From NCBI GenBank assembly GCA_043770315.1, contig JAYVIJ010000040.1, positions 2,872-66,871 on the forward strand: a DNA stretch of 64,000 nucleotides, written 5' to 3'. Position numbers and translations under genes: made by a program. Under the pieces are notes generated by a model. It made no database searches. It was not told where the DNA came from and worked only from the letters and a program-made list of their open reading frames with translations. The DNA is from Candidatus Altimarinota bacterium. Lineage in GTDB: Bacteria > Patescibacteriota > Gracilibacteria > BD1-5 > UBA2023. This document shows, one piece after another, positions 3,801 to 59,689 of this stretch; within the stretch, counting starts at the first letter, position 1; every line of letters starts with the position of its first letter.

Positions 3801-3911
3801 TCATATAGCCGTCACGAACAGGAATAACATCGAGGAAAAAAAGTCTACTCGATGTTTGAGCTTCTCGCTCGACTCAATCCACTGGAGAAATACTATTAGC
3901 CTCGCGATCAT
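897..3911 (-). CDS. Polytopic membrane protein with extracytoplasmic VIT and von Willebrand factor A domains (ITIH-like) and a C-terminal Ser-rich linker plus TM/basic tail
   Basis: One minus-strand frame joins track ORFs 3417..3788, 3048..3407, 2370..2906, 2094..2291, 1623..2060 and 1131..1397 through TGAs only. I walked every gap; the real stop is TAA 897-899 and an upstream in-frame TAG lies at 3960-3962. The N-terminal ~290 aa is multi-TM. The VIT-like block is VTYEFQN..EVIYSIALPDADAVMTDLRLGLN..VGVIAPRGAAAKVY. The VWA domain has a MIDAS-like IVFLDISKSAG and NIVILTDDD. The tail is ...GSSSISSGG-IVQYILVIVLFPLIAWYVL-RRKPK. The start ATG 3909-3911 is tentative. Confidence 0.85.
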
Positions 3912-13111: not shown

Positions 13112-14770
13112 CTAGAGTATGATCTCATCCTTTTTCGATATACTCCACATAAGCGCCCCGAGTATCACTATACCAAACAATACAAAGAATCCACCATATC
13201 CGAGCATCTCAAGCATAAGTCATCCAAAGACGAGACCGATGACATTTGCTGCATTTTGGAGTATTTTCATAGGCCCAGCAGAAGCATTTGAGTCAATCTC
13301 TTTAAGGTTGAGAGTTTTTGCATAAATGCTATTATAGGCATCAAGAAATTGGTTTTGTCAGAGAGACATTCCACAGGAATACCCGAGACTATTGATAAGT
13401 GCAAGACCGAGAAATATAACCGTAGTCGTTCCATTAAATGAGCCATCAGCTATAAATGCCATCATACCCATACCGATAAGTGAAACTCACGAAAGACCAA
13501 GTCCAGTAAATGCTACGGTTTTGATACCGACTTTTCCAGCGATTTTTCCAGCGACTTCCTGGAGTCAGAGAGCAGGGATGGCTATACATGCGAGAAGTAT
13601 GTAGCTCCATCCATGTTTTATATTATCGAGAAAGCTCACGAGAAATGTCGAGGCAAATGTATCCCAAAAACCAAATATAAGTACAAGGGTCATCGTCCAA
13701 TATATCACAATATATATGGGCATATGACTCATGATTTTCCATATTGTTTTTGCTGTACGTACAATTTCTATAGCGAATTCTTTCCAGTCGATTTTACTTG
13801 TTTCTTTTTGTTTCGGTTTGAGGAATATATATTTTGCTGTTGATACCACGGTCTCAAGATCGACAGCTGATATTTTTTCTGTGATATATTCTTTTACATT
13901 TTCGGCATTCATTTTTCGTATACCTACGGTAAATGAAGTCACATCAGAAAGGGTCAAACTCTCACTAGAATTATCGAAGAATCGGAGAGTAAAAACGAGG
14001 AATAATGCGATAGCACCACCAAGGAATACTATAGCTACAGTAGCATTCGTAGAGAGTATAAAACCAGAGACGACCAATCATACGAGCGATCAGAGTCCGT
14101 AAGTGATATTATTTCTTGCGAGTATTTTTCCATATTCACTCGGGTGCGCATGAGAGAGGATATAGCCAAATGTTGAAATATCATTGATCTCTTTCGTAAG
14201 ACCATAACATACGGATGCGACGATGATGAGTACCCAATTCAAAGCACTACTAAAAAACCATGATATTAATCCAGAGAATCCCTCGGGGACGATAAGTTTT
14301 CAGGCATCTCATACGAGAGAGAAAACACCATAGATAAAATTAAAAAATATTGCTACGGCAACGAGTTGGGATATAGCTGCAATAATGAAAAGTTTTTTTG
14401 TAGAAAAATAGCGTTGAAGTATACCTATAGGGATATCGAGGAGCACTGCTATGAAGTTCGCAATTCCGAGAAATATACCTACGAGTGCTACACTTTGAAG
14501 CTGGAATGTAAAGAAGAATACCACAGAAAAGTGGAATACCATCCATACAAATCACTGGAGTGCATTCGTCATATAGAAATTCTTGAGTCTATATCCATCG
14601 AGAGTAGTATTTGCTGATATAATTACAGTATCATCAGTTACTCAATCCTCTGAATCAGTAGACTCTTGTATCTCAGTTGGATTTTCAGAAGAGGCTTCTA
14701 TGGAAGTATTAGTTTCTTCAGGAAATATTGCTGCATCAGAAGATGGAGAAGAAATATCAGTTTCTGACAT
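13112..14770 (-). CDS. MFS-type multi-pass membrane transporter with an acidic Ser/Thr/Glu-rich N-terminal extension
   Basis: One frame joins 14309..14542 and 13565..14077 and extends to TAG 13112-13114. All gaps were walked and contain TGAs only. The hydrophobic helices are MFS-like (..LDIPIGILQRYFSTKK..). The start ATG 14768-14770 is tentative; an internal Met near 14570 is possible. Confidence 0.75.
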
Positions 14771-32317: not shown

Positions 32318-32431
32318 AGAAAGGAACTATGGGTAAGAGTTTTATAGATACTTCTATTGTCAATATGTTTATATTTGCTCGCATGAATAAATATTGTATA
32401 CTTATTTGCGTTTAATTATAAATCTTTTCTT

Positions 32432-34444
32432 ATGGAAAATACTTCTCCTAAGGCATGAATTTCTATTGATATGATCATATCGAAATTCGTACCCATTGTT
32501 TGAGTGACTCTTTTCGTTATAGGGCTCTGATATTTGATTTATAATAGTATTTGGGTAGATCTTGCTATGGAGGCAAAACTGGGACTTGGATTCTTCCTTT
32601 CTCTCGTTATCATAGGAGGTGCATTTTCTTTTTCGGAGAAACTTCGTTATTTTGCTGATGTGGTGATGGGGGGAGGCATACTTCTCCTTTATGGGACACT
32701 TATATATGGTTCACGTGCTACTGAAACAGCGAATGCCGCTATTCCAGAAATAGCAACACTTTTTTCTGCTGGTATTTTTACTCTCGTTTCAGCATATTTT
32801 GCTAAACTCAGACATTCTAAGGTTATATTGGCATTGGGTATCATAGGTGCTTATTTGACACCATTTGTCATTGGAAATGGTGGATGGGATAATCCGGGGA
32901 TATCATTCAATGCATATCTTATATATTTTGCTGCAGTCAATATGATCGTATTTCTTATGGGGAGAGAGATTGCTATACATGATCTCATACCACTGAATAT
33001 GCTTGGGCTTTTTTTCGGGACATCGACGCTCTATCATCTCTCTTATCTGAATAATGCTGATATATCTACGGGCTTTTTCGCTGGACCTGCATTTACCGCA
33101 GTCTTGATCGTAGTACTTCTTGGCTTTTGTATACTTGCTATATCACAGTCAGCAAGTAAGTTTGATCCAAAAGATGAGTTCCAGCTCACTATAGGATATT
33201 TCTTCCCTCTTGCTTGGGCTATACTCAATATAGAAAGACTAGCGGGAATATCACCATTGACTACCATGTGAGCCTACCTTGTTATAGCGGTACTCTACTT
33301 TCTTGCTTGGTATTATGTACGCAATCTTGCCTCTACTCGCACTCTCCATCTCGGTACATATGCAAGTGGTATTATAGCACTTATACTCGCTGTTACTTCA
33401 TATTTTCCAGAATTTACTGTCTATTCGAGCGTTCTTGTCGCCTATATAACACTTATATTTCTTGCAATATATATTTTTGATAATGCCAAATGGGAAAGAC
33501 TTTTTGCGGCTATGATATTTGCATGATTTGGAGGATTTCTCTCCCTATACCATATATATTTTGCCTCAACAGGATGATCTGAGTATCCAACACTTATGTC
33601 TATTATAGCACTCATGCCTGCTATTCTTATCTATCCAGTTTCATATTTTGCTTCTGAGACAAAAGCGAGTTTCCGCGCTCTTACACTACCATTTTCACTT
33701 ATTGCAAGCGTTTTAGCTCTCGTCATTCTTATAGGGAAGCTTCTTTCCACATTTGATTTTATGTTTGTGGTATTTCTCATACCTGCTTTCGTAGCAATAC
33801 TCTATATATATGTGACTGATATGGAGGCAGTAAAAAAATGATTTATTCTTCGATTTGCTCTTATATGGTGAGCATTTGCTGCTATCCTTCCATTTCTCTA
33901 TCTTATAGCAAATCTCGGCCCATGAGTAGCAGATAAAGAGAATTTCTTCATAGCTTGAGGTATATTTGCCAATGAAGATTTCATTAAGGCATTTATCTAT
34001 ATGATCATCCTATTTTTAGGACTTGGTATCAGTCGTCATCTTCAGAAGAAGACATGAAATAATAGGCCTTCCTTCATCCTCGTTATTTTCGCGTATTCCT
34101 TCCTTCTCCTTATTGTAAATTTTTGTATCATTACTCTTTGCAATGATCTTGGTATAGAATTTACGACATGATGACCTCGTGCTATCTGAACTACTCTCTG
34201 GTGGATTGCACTTGCTCTATTTATGCTTATGACGGGTATACATTATGGTCGTATATATCGAAGCGAGAAGCTCCTTTGACTTATCCTCCTTGCTCTTACT
34301 ATAGGAAAGATATGACTCTATGATATGGCAGCTATGAATACAGATAAGAAGATCATAGTATTTATGGTAGTAGGATGAGCTCTCATGATGTTTTCATATG
34401 TCCTTCAGGCGAAATGATATCTTCGAGAAAGTTCCGAGAAATAG
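32432..34444 (+). CDS. Large polytopic membrane protein, DUF2339-like
   Basis: One frame joins 32534..33271 and 33596..33841 and extends to TAG 34442-34444; all gaps were walked. There are about 18 hydrophobic helices. GAYLTPFVIG and the C-terminal LLALTIGKI-G-LYDMAAM...GGALMMFSYVLQ resemble DUF2339. Confidence 0.7.
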
Positions 34445-34468
34445 TTTATTTACTTTCCTCAATATATT

Positions 34469-35416
34469 ATGAGACGTCGTGGCATTAATATTCCTGAAGT
34501 TCCTCAAGGTCCATCTCTTTGGAAAAAAATATGGAATTTTTCTTCTTCGTTTTTCTGTCTAGTATGGAAAGTCATACTTTTCTTATGGTACTGGATACAA
34601 AGGATATTTCTTATAGTATTACTTATCATACTAACAGTATGACTTGCTTGGTGGCTCTCACAAAAACCATCAAATTATCGAGATTGGTCACTTTCTGAGT
34701 CTCTTCTTCAAGAGGTTTCATTCTCATGAAATATTGCCTTGATCAAGAACGTGAGAAATCATCTCTGGAGTACGGAGAAAAATTTTATTCCACAATACTA
34801 TGATGAAAGATATAATCTCGATGAGATCGAATCAGTACACTATATCATAGTACCATTTTCAGATCGTGTTGGACCTGCACATACTATGCTTTCATTTACT
34901 TTTTCAGGAGGTCAACATGTGGTGATTTCTGCTGAAGTAAGGAAAGAGCAAGGTGAATCATTTAGTGCGCTCAATGGTATTCTCAATCAGTTTGAGATGA
35001 TGTATGTAATAGGGAGTGAAAATGATCTTATAAAGTTGCGTACTCACTATAGAAAAAATGAGGTGTATATGTATCCTATTAATACACCAAAAGAGAAAAT
35101 ATCAGCACTTTTTCGTACTATGCTTATACGGGCTGATAAACTTTCCCGTGAACCAGAATTTTATAATACCCTCTGGAATAACTGTACGACAAGCATACTC
35201 CTTCATGCCAATGCTTTCCGTGAAGAGAAAATACCATGGACTATAAAAACGTTGCTCCCTTCCCATTCTGATAGTATCGTTTATAATGCATGACTTATAG
35301 ATACAGACCTATCACTTCCTGAAGCACGATCATATTATCGGATTGATGAAGTAGCTCGTAATACTGCTTCTACAGGTTTGACCTTTTCAGAAATAGTGAG
35401 AAAAGTACGAAAATAA
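34469..35416 (+). CDS. DUF4105 (Lnb N-terminal periplasmic domain-like) membrane-anchored protein
   Basis: N-terminal TM segment, then PSNYRDWSLSE...IKNVRNHLW, VHYIIVPFS...GPAHTMLSFTF, YNTLWNNCTTS. Stop is TAA 35414-35416. Confidence 0.7.
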
Positions 35417-35496
35417 GTTTTTCTTAATAGACAATATATCATTTTTTCAGAAACTTGGACGACTCCTAAAATTCATCTCCAATCTATAGCTTATCC

Positions 35497-36183
35497 ATGA
35501 AGTCTCCCTCCCTTAAAGAATCCTTCTCAATTTCATGTAATAATATTTCACTCTTTTATGGCGAAAAAAGTGTACTTATTTCACAAGATTTCTCACTCAA
35601 AGCTCATGAGAAAGTACTTATAGAGGGTCCATCAGGATCAGGGAAAACTTCATTCTTAAGATTGCTTTCAGGACTCATCCTTCCTGCTGAGTGATCGGTA
35701 CAATATATGCAGAAAAATGAAATTATTGATACAACTTCTTCAAGCTTTTCTGATTTTAGACGTGAAAATATCAGTATGACTTTTGCTGAACCACTATTTT
35801 TTGATACGCTTACCGTTGATCAGAATATTCTTTTTCCTCATATTTTTCTCAGTCTTCCATATCAAAAAAAGTGGAAAGATGATCTCATAGAGACTCTCGG
35901 TATTCGACCACTCCTTACTACGAAAATAGAAGCACTCTCTAGTGGCGAAAAAGATCGAGTCAATCTCATTCGAGCGCTTCTCTATGATCGTCCTATCCTT
36001 TTTCTCGATGAACCAGGTGCTCATATGGATCGACGACTTTTTTCGGTTTTTTTCGAACTTTTATGATCCTATCTCCTTCGCGTCAAGCCTATCACGGTGA
36101 TTATATCCCATTCAGATCGATTTATGTCACTGGTCGATCGTACCTATGTTTGTGAGAATGGTACTATCTTACCACGTATATAA
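35497..36183 (+). CDS. ABC transporter ATP-binding protein
   Basis: Walker A GPSGSGKTS, signature LSSGEKDRV, Walker B ILFLDEPGAHMD. There are two in-frame TGAs. TAA 36181-36183 abuts the next ATG. Confidence 0.9.
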
Positions 36184-37356
36184 ATGCTTTCTTTTATTTT
36201 TTCACATATTTTTTCACTCAAGATTCGAAGCCTGAGTATTATACTTGTGGTGACACTTCTGAGTTTTCTGATAGCTGTATTTGTCAGTATCTATAAAAAT
36301 ACTCTTTCAGCATTGGATTTTTATGGTCCTACAAATATCGATCCTACGAGAGTGACTTTCGTCTCACAGACGAGTATATTCGATATGTTTGCTAAGGATA
36401 GATGAGGGATTGATGCTACTATTCTTCGCCAAATTCAAAGTGATATGAGCTTTATTCGAACTCGATCATTTGCCTTTGTAGATACCAATACTATAGGATG
36501 ATTCGATATTTTTTCTTTCCATCTTGATACGGATGTTCCTGTATTTACACTTGATGATTCTCGGTGAGATCTTCGAGGATTTGGGATATCTCCTTCGATG
36601 ATTCACTACTATAATATCGAACTTGCTGGCTCTCATCCGATGTTTCCCACTCTGGATGAAGATTTTCTCGAATGAAAAAAAATATCTCTTGTCTTTGGTG
36701 CATCGAAAATATTTCAAGTATGAGGGACTCCCTCAACCCCCCTGGAATGAAGTATCGTTAGTGTAGATTCTGATTATCCTGGATTTGGAGTGGTAGGATC
36801 TCGCAGAGATATCGAAAAAAAACTCAGTGAGATTGGGGTTCTACCAAGACAGCCATATAAGGTCATCGCCTATATGAAAGACCTCAATGATCGAACGAAA
36901 GTTGAAGAGTCCTATAGCTCCTTTCTTCCAAAATTTGATAGTGATCTTATTGTGCAAAGACAAAAGCAATTTCGTGCATTATTTTTATCACTTTTTGGAG
37001 TTGGCACTATATTTGGGGGGATTATACTGATACTTTTGGTTCTTCTTTTTCTTGGGTACTTTAGAGAAAAAGAACCACTGTTTCGTCTTGCCCATGTTTA
37101 TGGTATTGCTTCTCCTTATAAGCAGGTTTTACTTTTCGCAGAGTCGACGCTCTTTCTTATTTTTGGTACCATTATCAGCATTCTTGTTATAGTGTTTTTT
37201 CAGAATTTTATTTTTTCGTACCTTTCAAGATTTTTCCATGAGCATGGAGTACTATTCCCACTTGTTTCTCTTTCTTCTTTTGAAATCTTTCTACTCATAA
37301 GTTTTTCTACTATCATCCTTATGTGAGTTATATTCTTTACTTCTCGAAAGAAATAA
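36184..37356 (+). CDS. ABC transporter permease (FtsX-like architecture)
   Basis: One frame joins 36184..36405 and 36790..37326 (gap walked). An N-terminal TM is followed by a ~200-aa extracytoplasmic loop and a C-terminal cluster of three TM helices. It is translationally coupled to the ATPase gene. Confidence 0.75.
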
Positions 37357-37401
37357 GGTATTCTGAAGGGAGAATTATTTATAGTTTCTATTTTCGTAAT
37401 T

Positions 37402-40023
37402 ATGCTTTCCCTTTTTCTCTCTTTGGTGCGATTTATACTCTCACTCCGATATAGACTCACTTTCAAAAATATTGAAGTTTTTGATGCACCTACTCCTGTC
37501 ATTGTATTCCCGAATCATCCAGCTCTCGCTGACCCGATGATCCTCACTTCCTATATAGCGAAGAAAAAGATCCTCTCACCAGTCATGACAGAAACGTATT
37601 TTCATACTCCTGGACTTGGACCTATCGTCCGAGCTCTTCGTACTGTTCCGGTAGGGGATATCGCAAAAGGATGAAGTATCGAGGATGTGAAAAAAGCATT
37701 TCAAGGCATTAAAACTGCTATGAAGAATGAGCAAAATATACTCATTTATCCATCAGGACATATTTATGTTCAACCATTTGAGCATATCGTCGGAAAGAAG
37801 ATGGCATATGAGATCGTAGGCATGCTCGATGGTGATACGAAGATTATCATTGCTCGTACTAAGTGACTTTGGGGAAGTATGTGGGGGAAGGCTTATACGG
37901 GGACTTCACCGAATCTTACGGCAGTACTCCTTCGTTCTTTCTGGCATATCATCGCAAATTTCATCTTCTTTATTCCGAAACGAGATATCACCATCGAGTT
38001 TTGTGATATGACGAGCAAGCTAAAAGAATGGCATACTCTTGGACTCGATACATTTAATCAAAAACTCCAAGACTACTATAATGAAGCAGGAAATGAGGAG
38101 TGCAGATTTATCCCTCATTATTTCTACTACGATGACACGAAGTGAAAAAAAGAACCACAGAGCATAGAAGGATCGATCGCTGAAGTGGGTGCATCGAGTG
38201 GTTTTTCTCTCGATGATATACCCAAAGATATCATCGATCAGGTGCGAGAAAAAGTCGCGACGATCAAGAAGATCGATATTAAAGATATCTCATTCAACAC
38301 GAATCTGATCCTCGATCTGCATGCTGATTCGCTTGATATGGCGGAATGTAAATCAGCGATCCAGTCCCTTTTTAAAGAAGCATCGAATCCACCTATAGGT
38401 CTTATCAAGACTGTATGAGATCTGGCTGCTATGGCAGTCGGAAAGCTCGAGTGAGAAGAGAAGCTTGCTTCGGTCTCATTTCTTTCCCCGAAAGAAGAGA
38501 AGATCGTATGTACCTATAGTCTATGAGATACTGTTTTGACGAGAATAAAGAAGAATTTTCAAGCAGAAAAATGAAAGCCATTTTGCTATGATGCTATGAC
38601 GGGGATGATGACGCGAGATGAATTCCTCCTTCGAGCGTATGTAATCTCGGGATATGTAAAGAGATTTTCTCCAGAGAGGATCGGGATTATGCTCCCAGCA
38701 CTTTCTGGCACCTCACTCCTCTTGGTTGGATCATATCTTGCAGGAAAACTTCCCGTTATGCTGAATTGGACTGTCTGAGAGAAATCTTTTGCTCACTGTA
38801 TGGAATTTGCAGGCCTGGATACGATACTTACGAGTCGGAAATTCTATGAAAAAATAAGTTCTCCATGGCTTGCGAAATTCGAAGGGAAAATGATCTTTAT
38901 CGAAGATATCATTCGAAATCTTTCTCCGATGACGAAAGTAATTGCTTTGATCAAAAAAACTTTATTTCTCCTTCCAAGCAGTACTGAAAGTGCTGTTATG
39001 CTCTTTACTTCAGGGAGTGAGTCTCTCCCGAAAGCAGTCGTCCTCTCCCATGAGAATATACTTTCTGATATTGACTGAGCCCTAAAACTTGTACCATTCC
39101 AGCAATATGAGACACTCCTTGGCTTTCTCCCGCCATTTCATAGTTTTGGATTTACTATCAATACGATATTTCCTCTCATTGCTCCCGTCCAAGTCGCATA
39201 TACTCCAGATCCCAATGATGCACGAACGATAGGAAAAATCCTTTTTCATACTGGGGCGAGTATCATTTCTGCGACGCCGACATTTCTGCGTATGATCCTT
39301 TCCAATAATTCCAAAGAAGTTCTCACATCGCTTCGATATGCTTTCATCGGTGCTGAGAAATGTGGAGATGATGTCTTCTCACTTTATAGAGAAAAATGTC
39401 CAAAATGATCTATTTTGGAGTGATATGGTATCACAGAATGTTCACCGATCGTTACGGTAAATACACTCGAAAAACAAAAAAAATGAAGTGCATGAAAATT
39501 CCTTCCTCATATACAGTATGCTATCCGTGCACTCGATGGAAAAGATAGAGTCAAACCTTGAGAGCAAGGGATGATATATGTGACTGGTCCAAGTATTTTT
39601 GCTGGATATCTTGATCCAAATATCGAAAGCCCATTCGATGATTTTGAAGGGAAAAAATGGTATAAGACCGGAGATCTTGGATATGCTGATAAGGATGGAT
39701 ATCTCTTTATCACGGGTCGACTCAAGCGATTTGTGAAGATTGCTGGGGAGATGATATCTCTTCCTTTTATCGAGACTATCCTGCTCGAAAAATATGGAAA
39801 TCTAGAATTGACGACTCTAGCTCTTGAAGCAAAAGAAGAAGATGGTATGGTGACTATAGTAGCATTTACCACTCTTGATCTTTCTGTCGATGAGTGCAAC
39901 GAATATATCCATACCCATGGAGCATCCAATCTCGTAAAGATCGCTCGTATCCAAAAAATAGATACCATACCGGTACTTGGTACGGGGAAAACGGACTACA
40001 AACAACTTAAATCTTTGATTTAG
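37402..40023 (+). CDS. aas: Aas-like trifunctional fusion: PlsC-type acyltransferase, carrier-protein (ACP) domain and acyl-ACP/acyl-CoA synthetase (AMP-binding) domain
   Basis: Six track ORFs share frame 1 (37402, 37879, 38185, 38596, 38800, 39571) and are joined by TGAs. Acyltransferase motifs are the HX4D FPNHPALADP and YPSGH. The carrier-domain motif is LDLHADSLDMAE (Ser codon 38329-38331). Adenylation motifs are MLFTSGSESLPKAVVLSHENI, E-G-YGITECSP, WYKTGDLG and GRLKRFVKIAGEMISL, very close to what I recall for E. coli Aas. Confidence 0.88.
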
Positions 40024-40028
40024 TATTT

Positions 40029-41327
40029 ATGAAACCGTATCACGCCCTTCTTCGATCTATAGATCGTGAATTCGAGAAAGCACTTGCTTCACTGAAATCT
40101 GATCCACTCTTTACTTCGAATAGAAAAGTCTATACAGCAGATGATAAGGCTCGTATTGCCCATCTATGGAAGGATATTGCTACACCATTTCGACGACTTC
40201 GGAAGATGATCCAGTCGATATATTGGAGATCATTTTTTACTTTTGGGAGTAAGAATAGTTTCGTCGTACAATATGCAGCAGTGACGACATATTATAATAT
40301 GGTATATGAACTCCAACAATCGTTCGGTGACCATGAGGAATTCTTTCGTCAATACCTCGATGACACATTTTCTGAGAATTATTCGACGATCGCTCGGTAT
40401 ATGTACCATATACGATTTTATTCGGTTCTACTCTATCCAAGAGAGTATTTTCTGACACTAAAAGATGAGGTAGATCGGAGTCTTGCTCCAATTTTTGAAA
40501 GACCAGAACGAGCATCTTGAACTATAGAAAAAAGATGGACGCATGATATGTCCAATATTTGGTACTATATCCGTTATAGGATAGGTCTTCTTTTTACTTG
40601 GATTGCGAAACATGGTGGTAGACTCATGCTTCATATACGCCTTTCTCGAAGAGAGCGATGACTTATTACACCTGAGAATGTAGAGAAGCTTCTTCCGATC
40701 ATGAAAGCTTGAGATATCCTTCTCACGAGAGGGAATTGGGCCGCTACGAATATGAATATTCCATGATTTTGGAAACATATGGCGATGTACATCTGAACCT
40801 GACTTTTCCTCAAGCAAAAGTATAATCTTTCATCGAAACTGAATCTCGAGGATGAGGAGCACTATATCATAGAAGCCATATGAGTATGAGTCCAGATCAT
40901 TTCTCTGAAAGCTCTTTGCGATCATAATGATTACCTTGGAGTGATCCGTCCAGCATTTTCTTCTGAGAAAAAGTCGCGAGTACTCACAAAGATTCTTTCT
41001 CTTATGGGGAAAGAGTATGACTACTCCTTTAATTATTATAGCGATGTGAACTATGTTTGTTCTACTCTTGTGACGAAGGTATACCTTCCAGAATCAGAGT
41101 TAGATGAATGACTTCATATTACCCTTACCCGTATAGGTATAAGTATCACTTATCCACCGAATGATATAGTGAAGAAAATGATTTCGGATAAGGAAAATGG
41201 TATTCATGAGCTTGATTTTATAGGGTTTATCGACTCGATCGACAGAAAAGGAGAGAATTTTCTCTCTACAGAAGAGGGCTTTATATCTACTGCAGTACGC
41301 CCAAAACTCAGTTTTTTCTTGCCATAA
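40029..41327 (+). CDS. YiiX/YaeF-like permuted papain-fold (C92/NlpC-P60 superfamily) hydrolase with an N-terminal helical extension
   Basis: Frame 0 was walked from 40029 to TAA 41325-41327. Blocks: KA-G(TGA)-DILLTRGNW, WKHMAMYI-G-T-G, YIIEAI-G-V-G-VQ, KEYDYSFNYYSDVNYVCSTLVTKVY (Cys nucleophile context). Confidence 0.7.
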
Positions 41328-41328
41328 T

Positions 41329-41892
41329 ATGCACTTTTTCGAGTACAAAAAGAAATCTCAAGAAATACTCCAAAAAGCTCATAAGAGGTATGATCATTTT
41401 TTTGAAGGTACAATTTCTGATGAAGGCTTAGAAGCACGATATCATCTTCTTGAATATCTCAGATGAACATTTCACTACATGTGAGGACTTGAGAAAGATG
41501 GAAATGGTACCCCACTTCCTCTTATTATAAAAGATAAATCATACTATTGGTCTATCTCACATTCAAAGAATTATATTGCCTATATCGTATCAGAAAACCC
41601 TGTAGGGATCGATATTGCTGAGCAAGAAATACGAGATATCGGACTTTTTGATATACACCATGCTTCTGAATATGGGATATTATGAGAGAAGAATTGGGCA
41701 GTATTTTATCTTCTCTGGACAGCAAAAGAAGCTATCCTCAAAGTTCATGGAGGAGCTCTCGACGATATGAAAGATATGAAGATATTACAAATGAGTGATG
41801 ATTCTATAAGTATTTTTGGATTTCATGAGAAAATATATACTATAAAGACATATAGAAAATGATCGATGATACTTTCTTATACGTATTCATAA
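41329..41892 (+). CDS. 4'-phosphopantetheinyl transferase (Sfp/AcpS superfamily)
   Basis: WSISHSKNYIAYIVSENPVGIDIAE and FYLLWTAKEAILKVHG. The start lies 1 nt after the preceding stop. There are four in-frame TGAs, so it is absent from the standard-code track. Confidence 0.8.
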
Positions 41893-41893
41893 G

Positions 41894-42700
41894 ATGCTGA
41901 AATTCTTTCTTTCCATTATTTTTATAGCGATCACTGCCTATATCTTGCTGTGCATTTTTATGTACTTCACCCAAGCAAGGCTTCTTTTTTTCCCACCCAA
42001 AGTGCAGTCTTCACACTATGAAAAAATATCTCAAAATATCAATCTCGAGAATATCCAAATAGCGACAAAAGATGGAGATACGCTCGATGGATGGAAACAG
42101 AGAGCCACAAATAAAAAGTATGTTCTTTTATACTTCGGATGAAATGCAGAAGAGGCATCATATTTCGTCGAGAAGTACTCCTATAGAGATACCAATATCA
42201 TAAGTTTTAATTATAGATCGTATGGTCGAAGTACAGGGAAAGCCTCAGAGAAGATCATGTTTTCTGATGCAATACAAATATATGATATTCTCGTAAATGA
42301 CTATCATATTGATCCGAAAAATATAATCCTCATGGGAAGAAGTCTCGGCACAGGTGTTGCTACATATCTCTCAAGTCAAAGATCTGTAAAGAAAGTTATC
42401 CTTGTAACTCCCTATGATTCTGTCGAATCTCTCGCAAAGGAGTGATATCCGTTTATTCCTGTATCACTCCTTCTTAGGAACAAGTTTGACTCACTCTCTT
42501 ATGCATCTATCCGATCGAATCGACTTCTTTGTATCTATGGGGGTAAAGATACTACAATCCCAAATCATCATACAGAAAATCTTCTCAATTACTGGAATGG
42601 AAGTATACAGAAAATCTTCATCCCTGAGGCGACCCATGAAGATATCCTTGATAAAGCTGAGCTTATAGATGGGATCGACCAATTTATTTCACCAACGTAA
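41894..42700 (+). CDS. Membrane-anchored alpha/beta hydrolase (lysophospholipase/esterase-like)
   Basis: N-terminal TM, the oxyanion-hole region LLYF-G-G-NAEE, the nucleophile elbow GRSLG, and late D..H candidates (GGKDTTIP..., ATHEDI). The start lies 1 nt after the PPTase stop. Confidence 0.8.
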
Positions 42701-42709
42701 TATTTTTAT

Positions 42710-43870
42710 ATGAATCGTTCACTTTTCTCACTTCTCGGACTCATCGCTCTCTGGAGTCTGTTCTATGCTGGAGTGAAATACTTCTTCTGGTGAGTCTATG
42801 CAGATGACTTTGCTCCGACTCTTGAGGGGATATCAGGCTATGTGCTTCTCTGAAGTATGATAGCGTATATCATCGGGGGTCCTCTCTATGCCCGCTATAG
42901 TGAGCGTATTATGCTGTTTATGGCTCTTGCTATAGGTATGATATTTTTCATTTGAGCTCTACTTTTACCACCAGTATCTCCAGTATTTTTTAATATATCT
43001 ATGGCGGGTATCGGGCTTGCATATTCGCTCTATGTCATAGGAAAAAATACCCTTATCGGCCGTGAGATAGCAACCTCGACCCTCTGATCTGCCACGATAT
43101 GAGCATTTACGACAGTTGTATTTATCGTATTTCTCGTTTTAGGTACTGTTATAGGATCTAAGATCTGAGAGACTGAAGGTCTTCTCTTCGCATGAATATG
43201 CTACTTCATAGGGCTTCTCGTATTCGTAGGAGGAGATCTTTTCATAACAGAGACGAGAAGGGAGACTTCTGTATTTCGAGCTTCGTGGGCTCTCTATAAG
43301 AAGCTCTTCTCTCGATATGCAATCTTTATGATTGGACTCGCATGCTTCTGGCAGATATCGGTCGAAGCTTCGCAGGTCGCGATCAACTATTCTAAGGATA
43401 TATTCGATACGTCGAACTCTGTTTCTTCACTTCTGCTCCTTTTCTCCTCTGTAGGTGCTATAATCTGAAATATTATCTCAGTGAAATTTTCCCATATGCG
43501 ATTGCGGGCGTTTTCGATTTTTTCTTCGATTTTTATCATTATAATATTCTGATTTTCGAGTATTCTCGATCTTGCAAAAAATCTTGATCAATATGCTATA
43601 GTCCAAGGTCTTGCATTTCTTGTGTGACTTTTCTTTGGAGGAGCGGTAAACCTCTGCGAATCCTATTTCTATAGCCTTCTTGGGAATGATGAAGATAAAG
43701 ACTATACTTCTGCTCTCTATGGTTTTACGTTATCTTTTGTATGAGCGATTATGATGTTTATATCAGAAAAAATCCTCCATACAGGTTCATATGGAGGTAT
43801 TAGTATATTTCTCTGATTTCTTGCCATCATAGCTCTCTATGGAGGAAGAAGGGGTATAGAAATGAAATAA
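42710..43870 (+). CDS. 12-TM MFS-type transporter (LplT-like size and position)
   Basis: The entire frame was walked from ATG 42710 to TAA 43868-43870; it contains 14 in-frame TGAs and no TAA/TAG. It is a hydrophobic 386-aa protein and is absent from the standard-code track. Confidence 0.7.
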
Positions 43871-43883
43871 TTTGATCGAACTG

Positions 43884-43910
43884 AAAAAATCCACTTTAGG
43901 TGGATTTTTT
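43884..43910 (+). terminator. Intrinsic terminator closing the lipid operon
   Basis: aaaaaatccac-tttag-gtggatttttt, located 14 nt after the stop. Confidence 0.8.
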
Positions 43911-43935
43911 CGTATTTTCACTATAATACAACACT

Positions 43936-47137: not shown

Positions 47138-47389
47138 ATGCAAACCCCTAATTCTTGATCTCACTGGCGACACTATAAATCTACTGGATGAGATAATCAT
47201 TCTTATGAAGTCATCGGCATTGCTCGACACTCCGAAACACACGAAGATATGGTGGTATATCGACCACTCTATACTCCTGAAGAGTGAAATTGGGTCTATT
47301 GATATGATTTTGCTGTTCGTCCACTCTCACTTTGGTATGATATCGTCGAATACAAAGGAAAACAGGTTCAGAGATTTACCCAGATATAA
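47138..47389 (+). CDS. DUF1653 family protein
   Basis: HWRHYKSTG-G-DNHSYEVIGIARHSETHEDMVVYRPLY....VRPLSLWYDIVEYKGKQVQRFTQI matches the DUF1653 pattern I recall (YRHYKG..Y.V...A.HSET.E..VVY). Confidence 0.75.
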
Positions 47390-47391
47390 TT

Positions 47392-48027
47392 ATGTACTAC
47401 TTATCATCCATTCCTGAAAATATCACTCCGAGTACGAAATGTATCATTATGCTCCATGGTGTATGATCGAATGAGCAAGATCTTTTTGCTCTCTCTGAGC
47501 GATTCTCAGAAGATACTCTGATTCTATCACTTCAGTGACCATTCTCTCTCGGGTGAGGAAGGTATGCATGGTATAAGGTCGATTTCTCTACAGGGAAGCC
47601 AATATATGCTCCTCAAGATGTAGAACTTTGATATGATGAGATACTTTCATGTATCCAAGAAGTCAGAGATAAGTATGATATAAAGAGTGAAAATATCTTT
47701 CTTATGGGATTCAGTCAAGGGGCCATCATGTCGTACTATACTCTCTGGAAAAATCCAGAGACAATATGAGGGATTATCGCTCTTTCTGGGAGATTACTTA
47801 ACGAGATTGATGTAAGCCATATTCAAGAAGAGAAATACGTAGGAAAACGAGTATTTATCGGACATGGTGAACTCGATAGCGTGATACCATTCTCTGCAAG
47901 TGAGACGACTCAGGAGTTTATAAAAAAACTTGGTATCATCCCAGATTTCCACTCATATCCTACTTCACATACGATCATAGAGAGAGAAATATGAGATATT
48001 ATCAATTTTTTGATAACTATTAAGTAA
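47392..48027 (+). CDS. Phospholipase/carboxylesterase family serine hydrolase
   Basis: IIMLHGV-G-SNEQDL, the nucleophile elbow FLMGFSQGA, and FIGHGELDSVIP...H. There are six in-frame TGAs and the stop is TAA 48025-48027. Confidence 0.8.
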
Positions 48028-51054: not shown

Positions 51055-51744
51055 ATGGAATCATGATTTTATTCATCAGGGAATGAGGAGATATACTTTG
51101 AAAAGATGATATCTCCTGTAAATAAAATTACCACTCTTGTTCTTCATGGTGCATGACAGTCAGATAGTACAAGAACTCTAGCTTTTCGAGAATCGCTTCT
51201 TGAGGAATGAATATCTACTCTTGCAATTGATTTTTCTGGTCATGGAAGAAGTACATATAATACACCATGATCTATACAAAAACGGATTCAAGAAGCACAA
51301 GATGCTATTTGATTACTTGATTCTTCGGATTGAATTACGCTTATAGGACTTAGTATGAGTGGAGAAGTGTGTATTCGACTTACACAAATAGCAAATATTA
51401 GTCATTTAGTTTTATTAGCCCCGGGCATATATCATCATAAAGCAATCAATATTCCTTTTGGTGATGAATTTTCAAGCCTTATACGTCAAAATGAAAGTTG
51501 GAAAGAAACAAAGATTATGGATATACTTATTTGATTTATAGGCCTTATACTTCTCATTACACCCCAAAATGATAGGACTATACCTGAATGAATAAATCAA
51601 ATTATTATGGATTCCGCACCAAATTCTACAAAGAAAAGAATTGTAATAGAATGAGCTCCACATATGATATGAAAATGGATGAATGAAAATCCAAATAGAG
51701 CTAAAATAATTGCAAAACAAGTTAAAGAGTATCTAATTTTGTAA
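51055..51744 (+). CDS. Alpha/beta hydrolase
   Basis: LVLHGA-G-QSDS, DFSGHGRS, the nucleophile elbow LIGLSMSGE, and a late ..-G-APHM. There are ten in-frame TGAs, so it is absent from the standard-code track. Confidence 0.7.
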
Positions 51745-58672: not shown

Positions 58673-59689
58673 ATGAGAATACTCATCTACTTTTTTTCAT
58701 TTTTCTTGCTTACTGCTTGTACGGGGGAATATTGGGATCATATAAAGAGAGAGCATGCCGATATAGTATCTGCATCTGGATCTATTTGAAGTGTCTCGGG
58801 TGTATTATATTCTTTACCTGATAAGAAGGTTTTGGAAGATCTCATTAGGACTCTTGCGGGTGCAAAGTCACGTATATGGCTTGAAACGTATACTTGGACA
58901 GAAAAAGAAACCTTAGAGGCAATCATCCAAGCAAAAAAAAGATGAGTTGATGTTCGTGTCGTCCTTGAGGGGAATGTATATCGTACTCCATGGATCAATA
59001 ATAGCTCAATAAAGCAACTTCAAGATGCAGGTATAGATTTTTCTTATGCTGATAATCATCGATATACCTTCACTCATATAAAAACTTGGGTTATCGATGA
59101 TAGATGGTGTATAAGTACAGGAAATTGGTCATTTACGAGTTTTACAAAGAATCGCGAGTTTATCTATTGTAGTTTTGATGTATCTCTTTTGCATGATATT
59201 GAAGAAATTATCCAGTCAGACTTTAAGCATGAGCGTCCATATTTCCCAGATGGCCTTGATTCGCGCATTGGTCTTTCCCCTGAGAATATTCGTCCTTGGC
59301 TTATCTCACATATTCAGAAAGCTAAAAATGATATTATCGTATATAACCAAAGTATTACTGATCAAGAGATTCTTACACTTCTCAAAGAGAAAGCTGATAG
59401 ATGAATCATCGTAAAACTTTGCCAAGCAGATCATGAGGATGAAGAGTCAAAAACTGGAGAACTTATTTTTCCCAAGAATATTGAGATAAAGACGAGCAAA
59501 AAGCCCTATCTTCATGCGAAAGTATTTCTTATAGATGGTGCGAAAGTGATTCTTTGAAGTGCTAATATGACACAAAATGCTCTTGAAAATAACAGGGAAA
59601 TTCTCATAAATTTAGGAGAAAATAAAGAATTTTATGAAACTATTTTTTCTTTCTACGACAAAGACTGCTATTCGTCATCTGGAAAGTAA
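58673..59689 (+). CDS. Phospholipase D superfamily lipoprotein (two HKD motifs)
   Basis: Lipobox FFLLTAC. HKD motif 1 is FTHIKTWVIDDRWCISTGNW. HKD motif 2 is YLHAKVFLIDGAKVIL-G-SANM. The frame includes 59189..59404. Confidence 0.85.

What the first reader, a model, noticed from the sequence alone, without database searches (positions are those of the whole stretch)
37402..41892. Acyltransferase-ACP-adenylase triple fusion with a dedicated PPTase two genes downstream
E. coli Aas (as I recall it) is a two-domain protein that borrows free ACP. Here a carrier-protein domain with a canonical DSL phosphopantetheine site (LDLHADSLDMAE, Ser codon 38329-38331) is inserted between two other domains. 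These are the HX4D acyltransferase domain (NHPALAD) and the adenylation domain (TSGSESLPKAV, YGITECSP, GRLKRFVKIAGEMISL). An Sfp/AcpS-type PPTase (GIDIAE, WTAKEAILK) is encoded in the same operon at 41329..41892. This would make a self-contained activate-tether-transfer machine that needs no FAS-associated ACP. That fits an organism without fatty-acid synthesis.
Basis: partly seen in the sequence, partly recalled or inferred. Interest (0 to 1): 0.65.

Follow-up and report, generated by a model that had tools for sequence, protein, structure and literature searches.

The report
Aas-like lipid acyltransferase with built-in ACP
A Gracilibacteria-type (CPR) genome that reads TGA as glycine encodes a relative of E. 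coli Aas with its own acyl carrier domain, in an operon with a phosphopantetheinyl transferase and a transporter; this is a plausible lipid-salvage machine for a cell that cannot make fatty acids, but the three-domain protein itself is common in many ordinary bacterial phyla.

Summary
Read with genetic code 25 (TGA = Gly; 14 in-frame TGA), 37402-40023 is one 873-aa protein. It has an LPLAT acyltransferase domain (HX4D), a carrier domain (Ser310, codon 38329-38331) and an Aas-type adenylation domain. Next come a C92 papain-like gene, an Sfp/AcpT-like PPTase (41329-41892), an alpha/beta hydrolase and an MFS transporter, with gaps of 1-9 bp and a terminator-like hairpin after the MFS gene.

The carrier domain is real. 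A family profile hits solved ACPs at E = 1e-13, and the Ser is kept in 81 of 83 homologues.

The architecture is not rare and not specific to cells without fatty-acid synthesis. Full-length homologues occur in at least 588 species-representative genomes, including Bacteroidota, Planctomycetota and Chlamydiota, often beside a true lplT. What is CPR-specific is the adjacent PPTase: 6 of 10 CPR loci against 0 of about 73 others, and reverse synteny agrees.

Best reading: an LplT/Aas-type (lyso)lipid re-acylation system whose ACP is in cis and whose PPTase travels with it. I found no experimental characterisation of the family. Verdict: a new variant of a known kind, of moderate interest.

The parts
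37402..40023 (+). Fusion gene, 873 aa under code 25 (14 in-frame TGA = Gly, stop TAG): Aas-like acyltransferase-ACP-acyl-ACP synthetase.
37402..38166 (+). N-terminal LPLAT/AGPAT-type acyltransferase domain (about aa 1-255). The Pfam PF01553 core is 37456-37764. The HX4D motif HPALAD is at 37516-37533.
   Evidence: PF01553 scores 33.2 bits against a cutoff of 23. H39 is kept in 83/83 homologues and D/E44 in 83/83. The family HMM matches E. coli Aas residues 2-147 at E = 3.6e-12.
38236..38427 (+). Carrier (PP-binding/ACP) domain, aa 279-342. The phosphopantetheine-attachment Ser310 is encoded at 38329-38331.
   Evidence: PF00550 scores 17.9 bits in the whole protein and 23.1 bits for the isolated segment. 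The family profile hits PDB ACPs at E = 1.3e-13. D309-S310 is kept in 81/83 homologues. In the AF2 model Ser310 lies at the N-terminus of helix 310-323.
38548..40020 (+). C-terminal ANL adenylation domain of the Aas / acyl-ACP synthetase type (aa 383-873). Motifs: A3 39007-39039, A5 39424-39447, A7 39661-39681, A8 39715-39762, A10 Lys863 39988-39990.
   Evidence: PF00501 scores 160.5 bits. Best NCBIfam models are PRK08633, PRK06814, PRK06334 and PRK08043. It is 30% identical to E. coli Aas 229-711, E = 5e-69. Foldseek hits are ANL enzymes.
40029..41327 (+). 432-aa protein with a C-terminal permuted papain-like (YiiX/YaeF, Peptidase_C92) domain and an N-terminal extension of about 220 aa. Candidate lipid hydrolase or acyltransferase (inferred).
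   Evidence: PF05708 scores 64.7 bits. Orthologues lie next to the fusion in L001 (64% identity), L085 and L087. A C92 gene lies 5 kb from the fusion in Carboxylicivirga.
41329..41892 (+). 187-aa 4'-phosphopantetheinyl transferase, Sfp/AcpT-like. Motifs GIDIAE (41605-41622) and WTAKEAILK (41716-41742).
   Evidence: PF01648 scores 36.9 bits against a cutoff of 25. Weak NCBIfam hits to AusB, AcpT, HetI and EntD. Motif residues are invariant in 5 CPR orthologues. Synteny with the fusion is shown.
41894..42700 (+). 268-aa alpha/beta-fold hydrolase with a hydrophobic N-terminus. Possible lipase, lysophospholipase or thioesterase (inferred). Absent from the orthologous clusters in L001 and L085.
   Evidence: PF00561 scores 32.6 bits. 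The orthologous clusters are compared.
42710..43870 (+). 386-aa MFS-type transporter, in the position that lplT occupies next to aas-like genes elsewhere.
   Evidence: MFS_1 E = 1.8e-7, but 30.9 bits is below the cutoff of 33.4. Orthologues lie next to the fusion or the PPTase in L001, L002, L006, L014, L085, L087, L088 and L091. Similarity to LplT is not significant.
43882..43912 (+). Terminator-like hairpin (14-bp stem followed by a T-run) that closes the cluster.
32357..37356 (+). Co-directional upstream genes: DUF2339 membrane protein (32357-34444), Lnb_N/DUF4105 protein (34469-35416), ABC ATPase (35497-36183), permease-like membrane protein (36184-37356). They may belong to the same lipid-handling island.
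   Evidence: DUF2339 and Lnb_N also flank the cluster in L001. DUF2339-lplT-fusion is the order in Carboxylicivirga.

Best explanation
The 873-aa protein is an Aas-type enzyme that carries its own acyl carrier domain.

Proposed mechanism:
1. The C-terminal ANL domain adenylates a scavenged fatty acid.
2. It loads the acyl group as a thioester onto the 4'-phosphopantetheine arm on Ser310 of the internal carrier domain.
3. The N-terminal HX4D acyltransferase domain passes the acyl group to a lysophospholipid, or a closely related lyso-lipid, at the inner face of the membrane.

The co-transcribed Sfp/AcpT-like PPTase converts the apo carrier domain to the holo form. The MFS transporter at the end of the operon plays the role of LplT and brings lyso-lipid across the membrane. 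The C92 papain-like protein and the alpha/beta hydrolase may supply fatty acid or lyso-lipid from foreign lipid.

In this Gracilibacteria-type cell, which by published accounts cannot make fatty acids, the operon would be a self-contained route from scavenged lipids to diacyl membrane lipids.

Shown here:
- The domain composition and the conservation of catalytic residues.
- Homology of two of the three domains to E. coli Aas.
- The insertion of the ACP.
- The operon layout.
- The conserved PPTase-fusion-MFS linkage in CPR.
- lplT adjacency in other phyla.

Inferred:
- The chemistry.
- The acceptor lipid.
- The PPTase-substrate pairing.
- The roles of the MFS, C92 and hydrolase genes.
For: - Domains and motifs.
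- Carrier domain: the family profile hits solved ACPs at E = 1.3e-13. The isolated segment scores 23.1 bits, above the Pfam cutoff. The Ser is kept in 81/83 homologues, while H39 and K863 are kept in 83/83. In the AF2 model Ser310 sits at a helix N-terminus.
- Aas homology: the AAS domain is 30% identical to E. coli Aas at E = 5e-69. The acyltransferase domain matches at E = 3.6e-12. The carrier region has no counterpart in E. coli Aas.
- E. coli Aas makes acyl-ACP and does not release it before transfer (PMC5693948; PMC11416262). An in-cis ACP therefore fits the known mechanism.
- True lplT homologues (E = 5.9e-37 against EcLplT) abut the fusion in at least 12 non-CPR loci from many phyla.
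- PPTase linkage: a PPTase lies next to the fusion in the window, L001, L002, L006, L011 and L014, and in 0 of about 73 non-CPR loci.
- Reverse search from the PPTase: L085, L087, L090 and L094 have the fusion adjacent. L088 and L091 have the MFS adjacent.
- Tight operon with a terminator after the MFS gene.
- No stand-alone ACP in the 64-kb window.
- Gracilibacteria rely on external fatty acids (PMC6851277). CPR membranes are rich in lysolipids, and no ACP-using enzymes were found in the CPR genomes of that study (PMC7242380).
Against: - There is no biochemical evidence for any family member. I found no paper that characterises this architecture.
- The window's MFS cannot be assigned to LplT by sequence, and its MFS_1 score is below Pfam's cutoff.
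- Four of ten CPR loci (L004, L005, L010, L031) have no PPTase within 6 kb. One close PPTase relative (L092) has no fusion nearby.
- All NCBIfam Aas models are matched far below their equivalog cutoffs, for example 407.7 against 1221 bits.
- The region of the usual LPLAT 'EGT' block reads YPSGH here, and the AF2 model is poor there (residues 119-131, pLDDT below 50). The acceptor may therefore differ from that of E. coli Aas.
- The AF2 model was built on the database copy, which has Trp at the 14 TGA positions.
- The rest of the genome could not be searched for other carrier proteins.
Confidence: 0.65

Rival explanations
1. Same activate-tether-transfer chemistry, but the acceptor is not a lysophospholipid delivered by a flippase. 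The acyltransferase domain would acylate glycerol-3-phosphate or lysophosphatidic acid, like PlsB or PlsC. The protein would then be the entry point for phosphatidic acid synthesis from scavenged fatty acids, not a repair or remodelling enzyme.
For: PF01553 covers PlsB, PlsC and LPLAT enzymes alike. CPR genomes lack the usual acyl-ACP or acyl-phosphate supply for PlsY and PlsC (PMC7242380). The window's MFS is not demonstrably LplT.
Against: The acyltransferase domain is homologous to that of Aas. Genuine lplT genes abut the fusion in many phyla. No cdsA, pss or other downstream phospholipid genes appear in the cluster.
Confidence: 0.15
2. The protein is a FAAL-ACP-type loading module. It hands the acyl chain to a non-glycerolipid acceptor, for example an amino acid or amino-lipid, a lipoprotein or another envelope component. 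The Lnb_N and C92 (NlpC/P60-like) neighbours would take part in that acylation pathway.
For: FAAL surveys report FAAL-like domains fused to LPLAT domains, with function unknown (PMC8460268; PMC12820801). Lnb/DUF4105 is an NlpC/P60-like lipoprotein N-acyltransferase in Bacteroides (PMC11573676), and an Lnb_N gene sits in the island. The LPLAT block III looks atypical.
Against: The best adenylation-domain models are Aas/AAS models, not FAAL or NRPS models. There are no NRPS or PKS neighbours in 118 flanking genes. The recurrent functional partner is lplT.
Confidence: 0.1
3. The PPTase is not dedicated to the fusion. It is the cell's general PPTase and serves one or more other carrier proteins encoded elsewhere. 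Its position in this operon is incidental.
For: Only 64 kb of the genome was visible. Four recoded relatives lack an adjacent PPTase. L092 has a related PPTase without a fusion nearby. Sfp-type PPTases are typically promiscuous (my own knowledge).
Against: Synteny holds in both directions in CPR and is absent in non-CPR genomes, which have other carrier proteins. No ACP-using enzymes were reported in the CPR genomes of one study (PMC7242380). The window has no stand-alone ACP.
Confidence: 0.15
4. The carrier domain is a structural relic that is never phosphopantetheinylated. The enzyme would use free ACP or CoA like its two-domain relatives.
For: PF00550 is below its cutoff in the whole-protein scan. 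Two Acidobacteriota homologues have lost the Ser.
Against: The Ser is kept in 81/83 homologues across many phyla at 31-66% identity. The profile-level match to real ACPs is strong. A PPTase is linked in genomes that otherwise seem to have no use for one.
Confidence: 0.05

Closest known systems
E. coli Aas (2-acyl-GPE acyltransferase / acyl-ACP synthetase) with LplT
   Same: The order of the two catalytic domains is the same: N-terminal HX4D acyltransferase and C-terminal ANL acyl-ACP synthetase. Both domains are homologous (30% identity, E = 5e-69; acyltransferase E = 3.6e-12). An MFS gene is a partner in both. In non-CPR homologues that MFS is a true LplT. In E. coli the acyl-ACP intermediate is not released (PMC5693948).
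   Different: E. coli Aas has no carrier domain and uses free holo-AcpP (PMC11416262). Here about 150-190 extra residues, including an ACP with a conserved Ser, lie between the two domains. A PPTase, a C92 papain-like gene and a hydrolase share the operon. The window's MFS cannot be assigned to LplT by sequence.
LplT-Aas tandem fusions (NCBIfam PRK08633 / PRK06814, 'acyl-[ACP]--phospholipid O-acyltransferase')
   Same: These are the best-scoring NCBIfam models for the adenylation domain (407.7 and 350.9 bits). The Bacteroidota MFS neighbour matches their N-terminal MFS part (254 bits).
   Different: Those proteins fuse the transporter to Aas and have no ACP. In them the profile passes from the acyltransferase straight into the AAS part at about position 620. 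Here the transporter is a separate gene and the ACP is fused in. Scores are far below the equivalog cutoffs (1221 and 1349 bits). The LplT-Aas fusions are themselves uncharacterised (PMC11416262).
Chlamydia trachomatis CT775 (LpaT) / CT776 (AasC) and Vibrio harveyi AasS
   Same: PRK06334, the AasC-type 'long chain fatty acid--[ACP] ligase' model, matches residues 375-872 at 323.7 bits. These enzymes also serve to incorporate exogenous fatty acids.
   Different: In these systems the acyltransferase and the synthetase are separate proteins and act on free ACP (PMC5693948; PMC12086093). Environmental Chlamydiota instead carry the three-domain fusion.
FAAL-ACP and adenylation-carrier didomains of NRPS/PKS loading modules (for example the EntE-EntB fusion structures)
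   Same: An adenylation domain loads an in-cis phosphopantetheinylated carrier domain that needs an Sfp-type PPTase. These structures appear among the Foldseek hits (3rg2, 4iz6). FAAL-LPLAT fusions have been noted in domain censuses (PMC8460268; PMC12820801).
   Different: The domain order here is carrier before adenylation. The downstream catalyst is a glycerolipid-type acyltransferase, not a condensation or KS domain. There are no NRPS or PKS neighbours.

Membership tests
Aas (bifunctional lysophospholipid acyltransferase / acyl-ACP synthetase) | N-terminal LPLAT domain with a catalytic HX4D motif, homologous to the Aas transferase domain (Aas-T). | tested here: met
   PF01553 scores 33.2 bits against a cutoff of 23. 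H39 is kept in 83/83 homologues and D/E44 in 83/83. The family HMM matches E. coli Aas residues 2-147 at E = 3.6e-12.
Aas (bifunctional lysophospholipid acyltransferase / acyl-ACP synthetase) | C-terminal ANL domain of the acyl-ACP synthetase clade. | tested here: met
   Top NCBIfam hits are PRK08633, PRK06814, PRK06334 and PRK08043. BLASTP against E. coli Aas 229-711 gives 30% identity, E = 5e-69. Motifs A3, A5, A7, A8 and A10 are present.
Aas (bifunctional lysophospholipid acyltransferase / acyl-ACP synthetase) | Reaches NCBI's equivalog score cutoff for an Aas model. | tested here: not met
   Scores against cutoffs are 407.7 vs 1221 (PRK08633), 350.9 vs 1349 (PRK06814) and 254.3 vs 886 (PRK08043). 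It is a relative, not an equivalog.
Aas (bifunctional lysophospholipid acyltransferase / acyl-ACP synthetase) | Two-domain architecture that uses free holo-ACP as co-substrate. | tested here: not met
   A carrier domain is inserted between the two domains. The carrier HMM has no hit in E. coli Aas, and HMM positions 168-357 have no counterpart there. Actual ACP usage cannot be tested here.
Aas (bifunctional lysophospholipid acyltransferase / acyl-ACP synthetase) | Genetic coupling to the lysophospholipid flippase LplT. | tested here: inconclusive
   At family level it is met: at least 12 non-CPR loci have an abutting MFS whose HMM hits EcLplT at E = 5.9e-37. In the window an MFS gene is in the operon, but it shows no significant similarity to LplT.
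Aas (bifunctional lysophospholipid acyltransferase / acyl-ACP synthetase) | ATP- and fatty-acid-dependent acylation of 2-acyl-GPE or other lysophospholipids. | not testable with these tools
   This needs an enzyme assay.
Phosphopantetheine-binding carrier domain (PF00550 / ACP-like) | Scores as PP-binding at Pfam's gathering threshold. | tested here: inconclusive
   The whole protein scores 17.9 bits, below the cutoff of 20.8. The isolated segment (aa 262-356) scores 23.1 bits, above it. 22 of 28 family members pass, best E = 6.8e-12.
Phosphopantetheine-binding carrier domain (PF00550 / ACP-like) | Conserved D-S-L attachment Ser, aligned with the Ser of genuine ACPs and lying at the N-terminus of helix II. 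| tested here: met
   The profile against the PDB gives E = 1.3e-13 with DSLD in register. D-S is kept in 81/83 homologues. AF2 helices are 275-289, 310-323 and 338-345.
Phosphopantetheine-binding carrier domain (PF00550 / ACP-like) | Actually carries 4'-phosphopantetheine. | not testable with these tools
   This needs mass spectrometry after co-expression with the PPTase.
Sfp/AcpT-type 4'-phosphopantetheinyl transferase | PF01648 domain above threshold, with the Mg/CoA-binding motifs G-x-D and W/F-x-x-K-E-x-x-x-K. | tested here: met
   PF01648 scores 36.9 bits against a cutoff of 25. GIDIAE and WTAKEAILK are present. G93, D95, W130, K133, E134 and K138 are invariant in 5 CPR orthologues.
Sfp/AcpT-type 4'-phosphopantetheinyl transferase | Group II (Sfp-like, roughly 190-240 aa pseudo-dimer) rather than group I (AcpS, about 120 aa). 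| tested here: inconclusive
   The protein is 187 aa long. Its best NCBIfam hits are AusB (42.4 bits), AcpT (28.5), HetI and EntD, all far below their cutoffs. The structure was not modelled.
Sfp/AcpT-type 4'-phosphopantetheinyl transferase | Modifies the fusion's carrier domain (dedicated partner). | not testable with these tools
   There is only genomic support: linkage in 6 of 10 CPR loci against 0 of about 73 others, and reverse synteny.
LplT (MFS lysophospholipid transporter) | Sequence membership of the window's MFS gene (42710-43870). | tested here: inconclusive
   MFS_1 scores 30.9 bits, below the cutoff of 33.4. There is no NCBIfam hit even at E = 1. It is not significant against the LplT-like HMM or against EcLplT. 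Only its position in the cluster is equivalent.
FAAL (fatty acyl-AMP ligase) | FAAL-specific insertion and the pocket that excludes CoA. | not tested
   Considered only because domain censuses mention FAAL-LPLAT fusions (PMC8460268; PMC12820801).

The most novel reading that the evidence does not exclude
The fusion-PPTase-MFS operon, with C92 and the hydrolase, could be the main or only route by which Gracilibacteria and related TGA-recoded CPR bacteria build diacyl membrane lipids from prey- or host-derived lysolipids and fatty acids. The carrier domain of the fusion would then be the only phosphopantetheinylated protein in the cell, and the PPTase would be retained solely for it. This would be the first defined ACP-dependent lipid enzyme system in CPR and a molecular explanation for their lysolipid-rich membranes.
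Probability: 0.3. Interest if true: 0.7.

Novelty: new variant of a known kind. Interest (0 to 1): 0.5.

Why it matters
CPR/Patescibacteria are thought to take their membrane lipids from other cells, but the enzymes involved are unknown. One lipidomic-metagenomic study reported finding no ACP-producing or ACP-requiring enzymes in its CPR genomes, and found lysolipid-rich membranes (PMC7242380). This operon is a concrete, testable candidate for that missing step.

The result matters beyond CPR. It shows that a large, phylogenetically wide subfamily of Aas homologues carries the ACP in cis. I found no experimental characterisation of this subfamily. The fusion is Rosetta-stone-type support for the old biochemical finding that E. 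coli Aas keeps acyl-ACP bound. It also offers a simpler single-polypeptide system for studying LplT/Aas-type membrane repair.

There is a practical point for annotation. Public databases hold these CPR proteins translated with TGA = Trp, which lowers domain scores and hides the carrier domain.

Tried and rejected
- Table-11 ORF calling breaks the gene into fragments. I replaced it with code 25.
- My first automatic choice of genetic code for the 84 loci, by longest ORF, was wrong: read-through inflated ORFs in code-11 genomes. I replaced it with tblastn-defined regions and in-frame TGA counts.
- Assigning the window's MFS to LplT failed by NCBIfam, by an HMM built from the non-CPR LplT-like neighbours and by BLASTP against EcLplT. 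An iterated HMM did pull the CPR MFS genes in, but I do not count that as evidence.
I used P0001 instead, the database copy with 14 Gly-to-Trp changes.
- The Foldseek search of the whole model returned only ANL enzymes and added nothing on the other two domains.
- The first Pfam scan of neighbouring genes exceeded the residue limit. I repeated it without the 8 longest ORFs.
- Literature searches for an ACP-containing Aas, or for this operon in CPR, found no description.
- The supplementary files held for the closed Gracilibacteria genome paper contain no gene table.
- There are no tRNA genes in the window, so no direct tRNA-Gly(UCA) evidence.
- The promoter scan was uninformative: 46 sites found against 53.8 expected by chance.
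- I considered the reading 'pseudogene with many stops' and rejected it. All internal stops are TGA, they fall on Gly columns, and every gene of the cluster shows the same pattern.

Full report
**1. What is in the sequence**

Under the standard bacterial code the stretch 37402-40023 is a string of short ORFs, all in one frame. Every internal stop is TGA (14 of them) and the true stop is TAG. At those 14 positions the 74 homologues from code-11 genomes carry Gly in 535 cells. Three positions are 74/74 Gly and one is 73/74. Trp is not among the commonest residues there. The window therefore uses genetic code 25 (TGA = Gly).

This fits the closest relatives, which are labelled Candidatus Gracilibacteria or Candidatus Altimarinota, a phylum in the Patescibacteria group. 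Every gene in the surrounding cluster contains in-frame TGA. The public database copy of this very protein (P0001) differs from the code-25 translation only by Trp at the 14 TGA positions. It was evidently translated with code 4.

**2. The three domains**

Read with code 25, the gene encodes 873 aa. Pfam finds three domains:
- PF01553 acyltransferase, aa 19-121: 33.2 bits, cutoff 23.
- PF00550 PP-binding, aa 279-342: 17.9 bits, just under the cutoff of 20.8, but covering profile positions 1-64 of 67.
- PF00501 AMP-binding, aa 425-737: 160.5 bits.

The Ser310 codon is at 38329-38331.

Because the carrier domain was the weak point, I tested it in four ways:
- The isolated segment scores 23.1 bits, above the cutoff, and 22 of 28 homologous segments pass.
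- A profile of the segment from 28 homologues hits bona fide ACP structures down to E = 1.3e-13, with the DSL Ser in register.
- The D-S pair is kept in 81 of 83 aligned family members at 31-66% identity. The acyltransferase His and the A10 Lys are kept in all 83.
- In an AlphaFold2 model (mean pLDDT 80.7, pTM 0.62) Ser310 sits at the N-terminus of helix 310-323, flanked by helices 275-289 and 338-345. This is the carrier-protein signature.

That criterion is not met.

**3. Relation to Aas**

The adenylation domain's best NCBIfam models are the Aas and acyl-ACP-synthetase models: PRK08633, PRK06814, PRK06334 and PRK08043. All score well below their equivalog cutoffs.

I fetched E. coli K-12 lplT-aas and compared directly:
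- Fusion 394-873 aligns with Aas 229-711 at 30% identity (E = 5e-69).
- The family HMM matches the Aas transferase domain (HMM 6-167 to Aas 2-147, E = 3.6e-12).
- HMM positions 168-357, which contain the carrier domain, have no counterpart in Aas.
- The carrier HMM finds nothing in E. coli Aas.

So this is an Aas homologue with an ACP inserted between its two catalytic domains.

According to the literature, E. coli Aas has a transferase domain (aa 1-203) and a synthase domain (aa 204-719). It uses holo-ACP, forms a complex with the MFS flippase LplT (PMC11416262) and does not liberate the acyl-ACP intermediate (PMC5693948). An in-cis ACP is therefore a natural variant of the known mechanism.

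**4. How common the architecture is**

It is common. The protein search returned 253 hits at E <= 1e-10 from a capped candidate set. The best 120 listed are mostly 810-990 aa long and cover 93-100% of the query. Many come from Bacteroidota, and PF00550 is already recorded for many of them. Their names include 'AMP-binding protein', 'acyl-[ACP]--phospholipid O-acyltransferase' and JGI's 'acyl-CoA synthetase.../acyl carrier protein'.

The best 80 almost all span nearly the whole query. They come from Gracilibacteria, Peribacteria, Bacteroidota, Planctomycetota (including Kuenenia), Chlamydiota (Parachlamydiaceae, Waddliaceae), Verrucomicrobiota, Lentisphaerota, Kiritimatiellota, Acidobacteriota, Bdellovibrionota, Desulfobacterota and Gammaproteobacteria.

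These phyla have type II fatty-acid synthesis (established knowledge). The fused ACP therefore cannot be explained as an adaptation to the loss of FAS.

**5. Genomic context**

In the window the genes run co-directionally: DUF2339, Lnb_N, ABC ATPase, permease-like, fusion, C92 papain-like, PPTase, alpha/beta hydrolase, MFS. From the fusion onward the gaps are 5, 1, 1 and 9 bp. A strong terminator-like hairpin sits at 43882-43912, just after the MFS stop.

I surveyed 82 loci that carry a family member:
- A PPTase orthologue lies beside the fusion in L001, L002, L006 and L011 (all TGA-recoded) and in L014 (Peribacteria, code 11). With the window this makes 6 of 10 CPR-type loci.
- No PPTase was found within 6 kb in about 73 non-CPR loci.
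- An unbiased Pfam scan of 118 nearest neighbours in the non-CPR loci shows cysteinyl-tRNA synthetase (17-18 loci) and MFS_1 (13 loci) as the recurrent partners. PF01648 is not among the listed recurrent families.
- The non-CPR MFS neighbours are true LplT homologues. The Carboxylicivirga neighbour scores 254 bits on the MFS part of PRK08633 and 108 bits on PRK11195 LplT. Their HMM hits E. coli LplT at E = 5.9e-37.

I then ran the reverse test, starting from the PPTase, against JGI metagenome contigs. Among the closest relatives with informative flanks:
- L085 has fusion-C92-PPTase-MFS.
- L087 has PPTase-MFS-fusion, with C92 nearby.
- L090 has fusion-PPTase.
- L094 has PPTase-fusion.
- L088 and L091 have PPTase-MFS before the contig ends.
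- Only L092 lacks both.
- A more distant PPTase group (L097-L108, about 30% identity) has no fusion nearby.

The PPTase has the G-x-D and W-T-x-K-E-x-x-x-K motifs, which are invariant in five CPR orthologues. It is 187 aa long and resembles AusB, AcpT, HetI and EntD rather than AcpS.

The 64-kb window contains no stand-alone ACP. The carrier HMM hits only the fusion.

**6. Interpretation**

The best-supported reading is an LplT/Aas-type lipid re-acylation system that carries its own ACP. In CPR it also carries its own PPTase.

The logic of the PPTase linkage is simple. Organisms with FAS II already have PPTases and need none in the operon. A Gracilibacterium reported to lack lipid and fatty-acid synthesis (PMC6851277) has to keep one for this protein. 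The explanation offered for why the ACP is fused is not supported.

The following remain inferences:
- The acceptor lipid.
- The role of the window's MFS, which cannot be assigned to LplT by sequence.
- The roles of the C92 protein and the hydrolase.
- The exclusivity of the PPTase.

Four recoded relatives lack an adjacent PPTase, so linkage is frequent but not obligatory.

**7. Novelty**

I found no paper that describes an Aas with an embedded ACP, or this operon in CPR. Two FAAL surveys mention in passing FAAL-like domains fused to lysophospholipid acyltransferase domains, with function unknown (PMC8460268; PMC12820801). The LplT/Aas paper notes that LplT-Aas fusions are uncharacterised and does not mention an ACP form (PMC11416262). 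The CPR lipid study reported that ACP-producing or ACP-requiring enzymes were not identified in its CPR genomes, and proposed uptake of lysolipids (PMC7242380).

The protein family itself is already in the databases and is partly auto-annotated. I therefore rate this as a new variant of a known kind, not a new kind. The value lies in the CPR-specific operon and in the fact that the subfamily is large and unstudied.

**8. Caveats**

- The AF2 model used the Trp-containing database sequence. Its inter-domain geometry was not examined.
- The synteny survey relies on my own ORF calling and on HMMs seeded from few sequences. Divergent PPTases could have been missed in the +/-6 kb survey. The Pfam scan of neighbours covered only the nearest gene on each side.
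- Taxon labels are those of the deposited MAG records.
- Literature coverage is limited to the open-access library that was searched.

Noticed in passing
window 1-64000 (for example 32357-43870): The whole window uses TGA as a Gly codon (code 25). Every gene of the cluster has 2-19 in-frame TGA codons and ends in TAA or TAG. Public database copies of these proteins are translated with TGA = Trp: P0001 is the window's protein with 14 Gly-to-Trp changes. This lowers domain scores and probably explains why PF00550 is missing from the precomputed Pfam lists of the CPR members.
   Followed up: yes
window 40029-41327; L001 11636-12934; L085 958-2259; L087 13214-14497; L003 3398-4018: A 432-aa protein with a permuted papain-like (YiiX/YaeF, C92) domain and an unexplained N-terminal extension of about 220 aa is conserved directly next to the fusion in CPR relatives. 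A short C92 gene lies 5 kb from the fusion in Carboxylicivirga. Permuted NlpC/P60-type enzymes include lipid acyltransferases and phospholipases (my own knowledge), so this may be the lipid-cleaving partner of the system.
   Followed up: partly
window 32357-35416; L001 14796-17710; L003 6048-7643: A DUF2339 membrane protein followed by an Lnb_N (DUF4105) protein accompanies the cluster in the window and in L001. DUF2339 also precedes lplT-fusion in Carboxylicivirga. Lnb is the NlpC/P60-like lipoprotein N-acyltransferase of Bacteroides (PMC11573676). If it works like Lnt, this reaction would produce lysophospholipid (my inference), which would link it to an Aas-type recycling enzyme.
   Followed up: partly
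L072 (Holophagaceae MAG) and L081 (Acidobacteria MAG), carrier-domain column of Ser310: Two Acidobacteriota homologues have DAL and DGL instead of DSL, so they have lost the phosphopantetheine-attachment Ser. They keep the acyltransferase His and the A10 Lys. These could be natural 'apo-only' variants that have reverted to using free ACP or CoA.
   Followed up: no
L021, L022, L030, L040, L048, L059, L062, L068, L070, L071, L073, L076, L079, L080, L084 and others: the gene immediately downstream of the fusion: In Chlamydiota and related loci the recurrent neighbour of the fusion is cysteinyl-tRNA synthetase (17-18 of 118 nearest neighbours), not lplT or a PPTase. There is no obvious functional reason.
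   Followed up: no
window 58673-59689, 47284-48027, 51055-51744, 13112-14770: The window holds further lipid-handling candidates. One is a PLD-like protein with two HKD motifs and a lipoprotein-type signal (PLDc_2, 131.6 bits). Another is an Abhydrolase_2 'phospholipase/carboxylesterase' (103.3 bits). There is also another alpha/beta hydrolase and a second MFS transporter. This fits a lipid-scavenging lifestyle.
   Followed up: partly
window 37741-37794 (aa 114-131 of the fusion): Where LPLATs usually have the 'FPEGT' acceptor-binding block (from memory), this family has YPSGxI, with P117, G119 and Q124 conserved. The AF2 model is at its worst here (residues 119-131, pLDDT below 50). The acceptor pocket may differ from that of PlsC or Aas.
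   Followed up: no
window 5391-11294 and 897-3911: There are very large ORFs: one of 1967 aa on the + strand, not analysed, and one of 1004 aa on the - strand with several predicted membrane helices and a VIT domain. They resemble the giant surface proteins described for related predatory CPR (PMC8080830).
   Followed up: no
L031 (record labelled Candidatus Peribacteria) versus L014 (also labelled Peribacteria): L031 has at least 3 in-frame TGA codons in the fusion gene (recoded), whereas L014 has none. Either the taxon label of L031 is wrong or recoding is patchy in that group.
   Followed up: no
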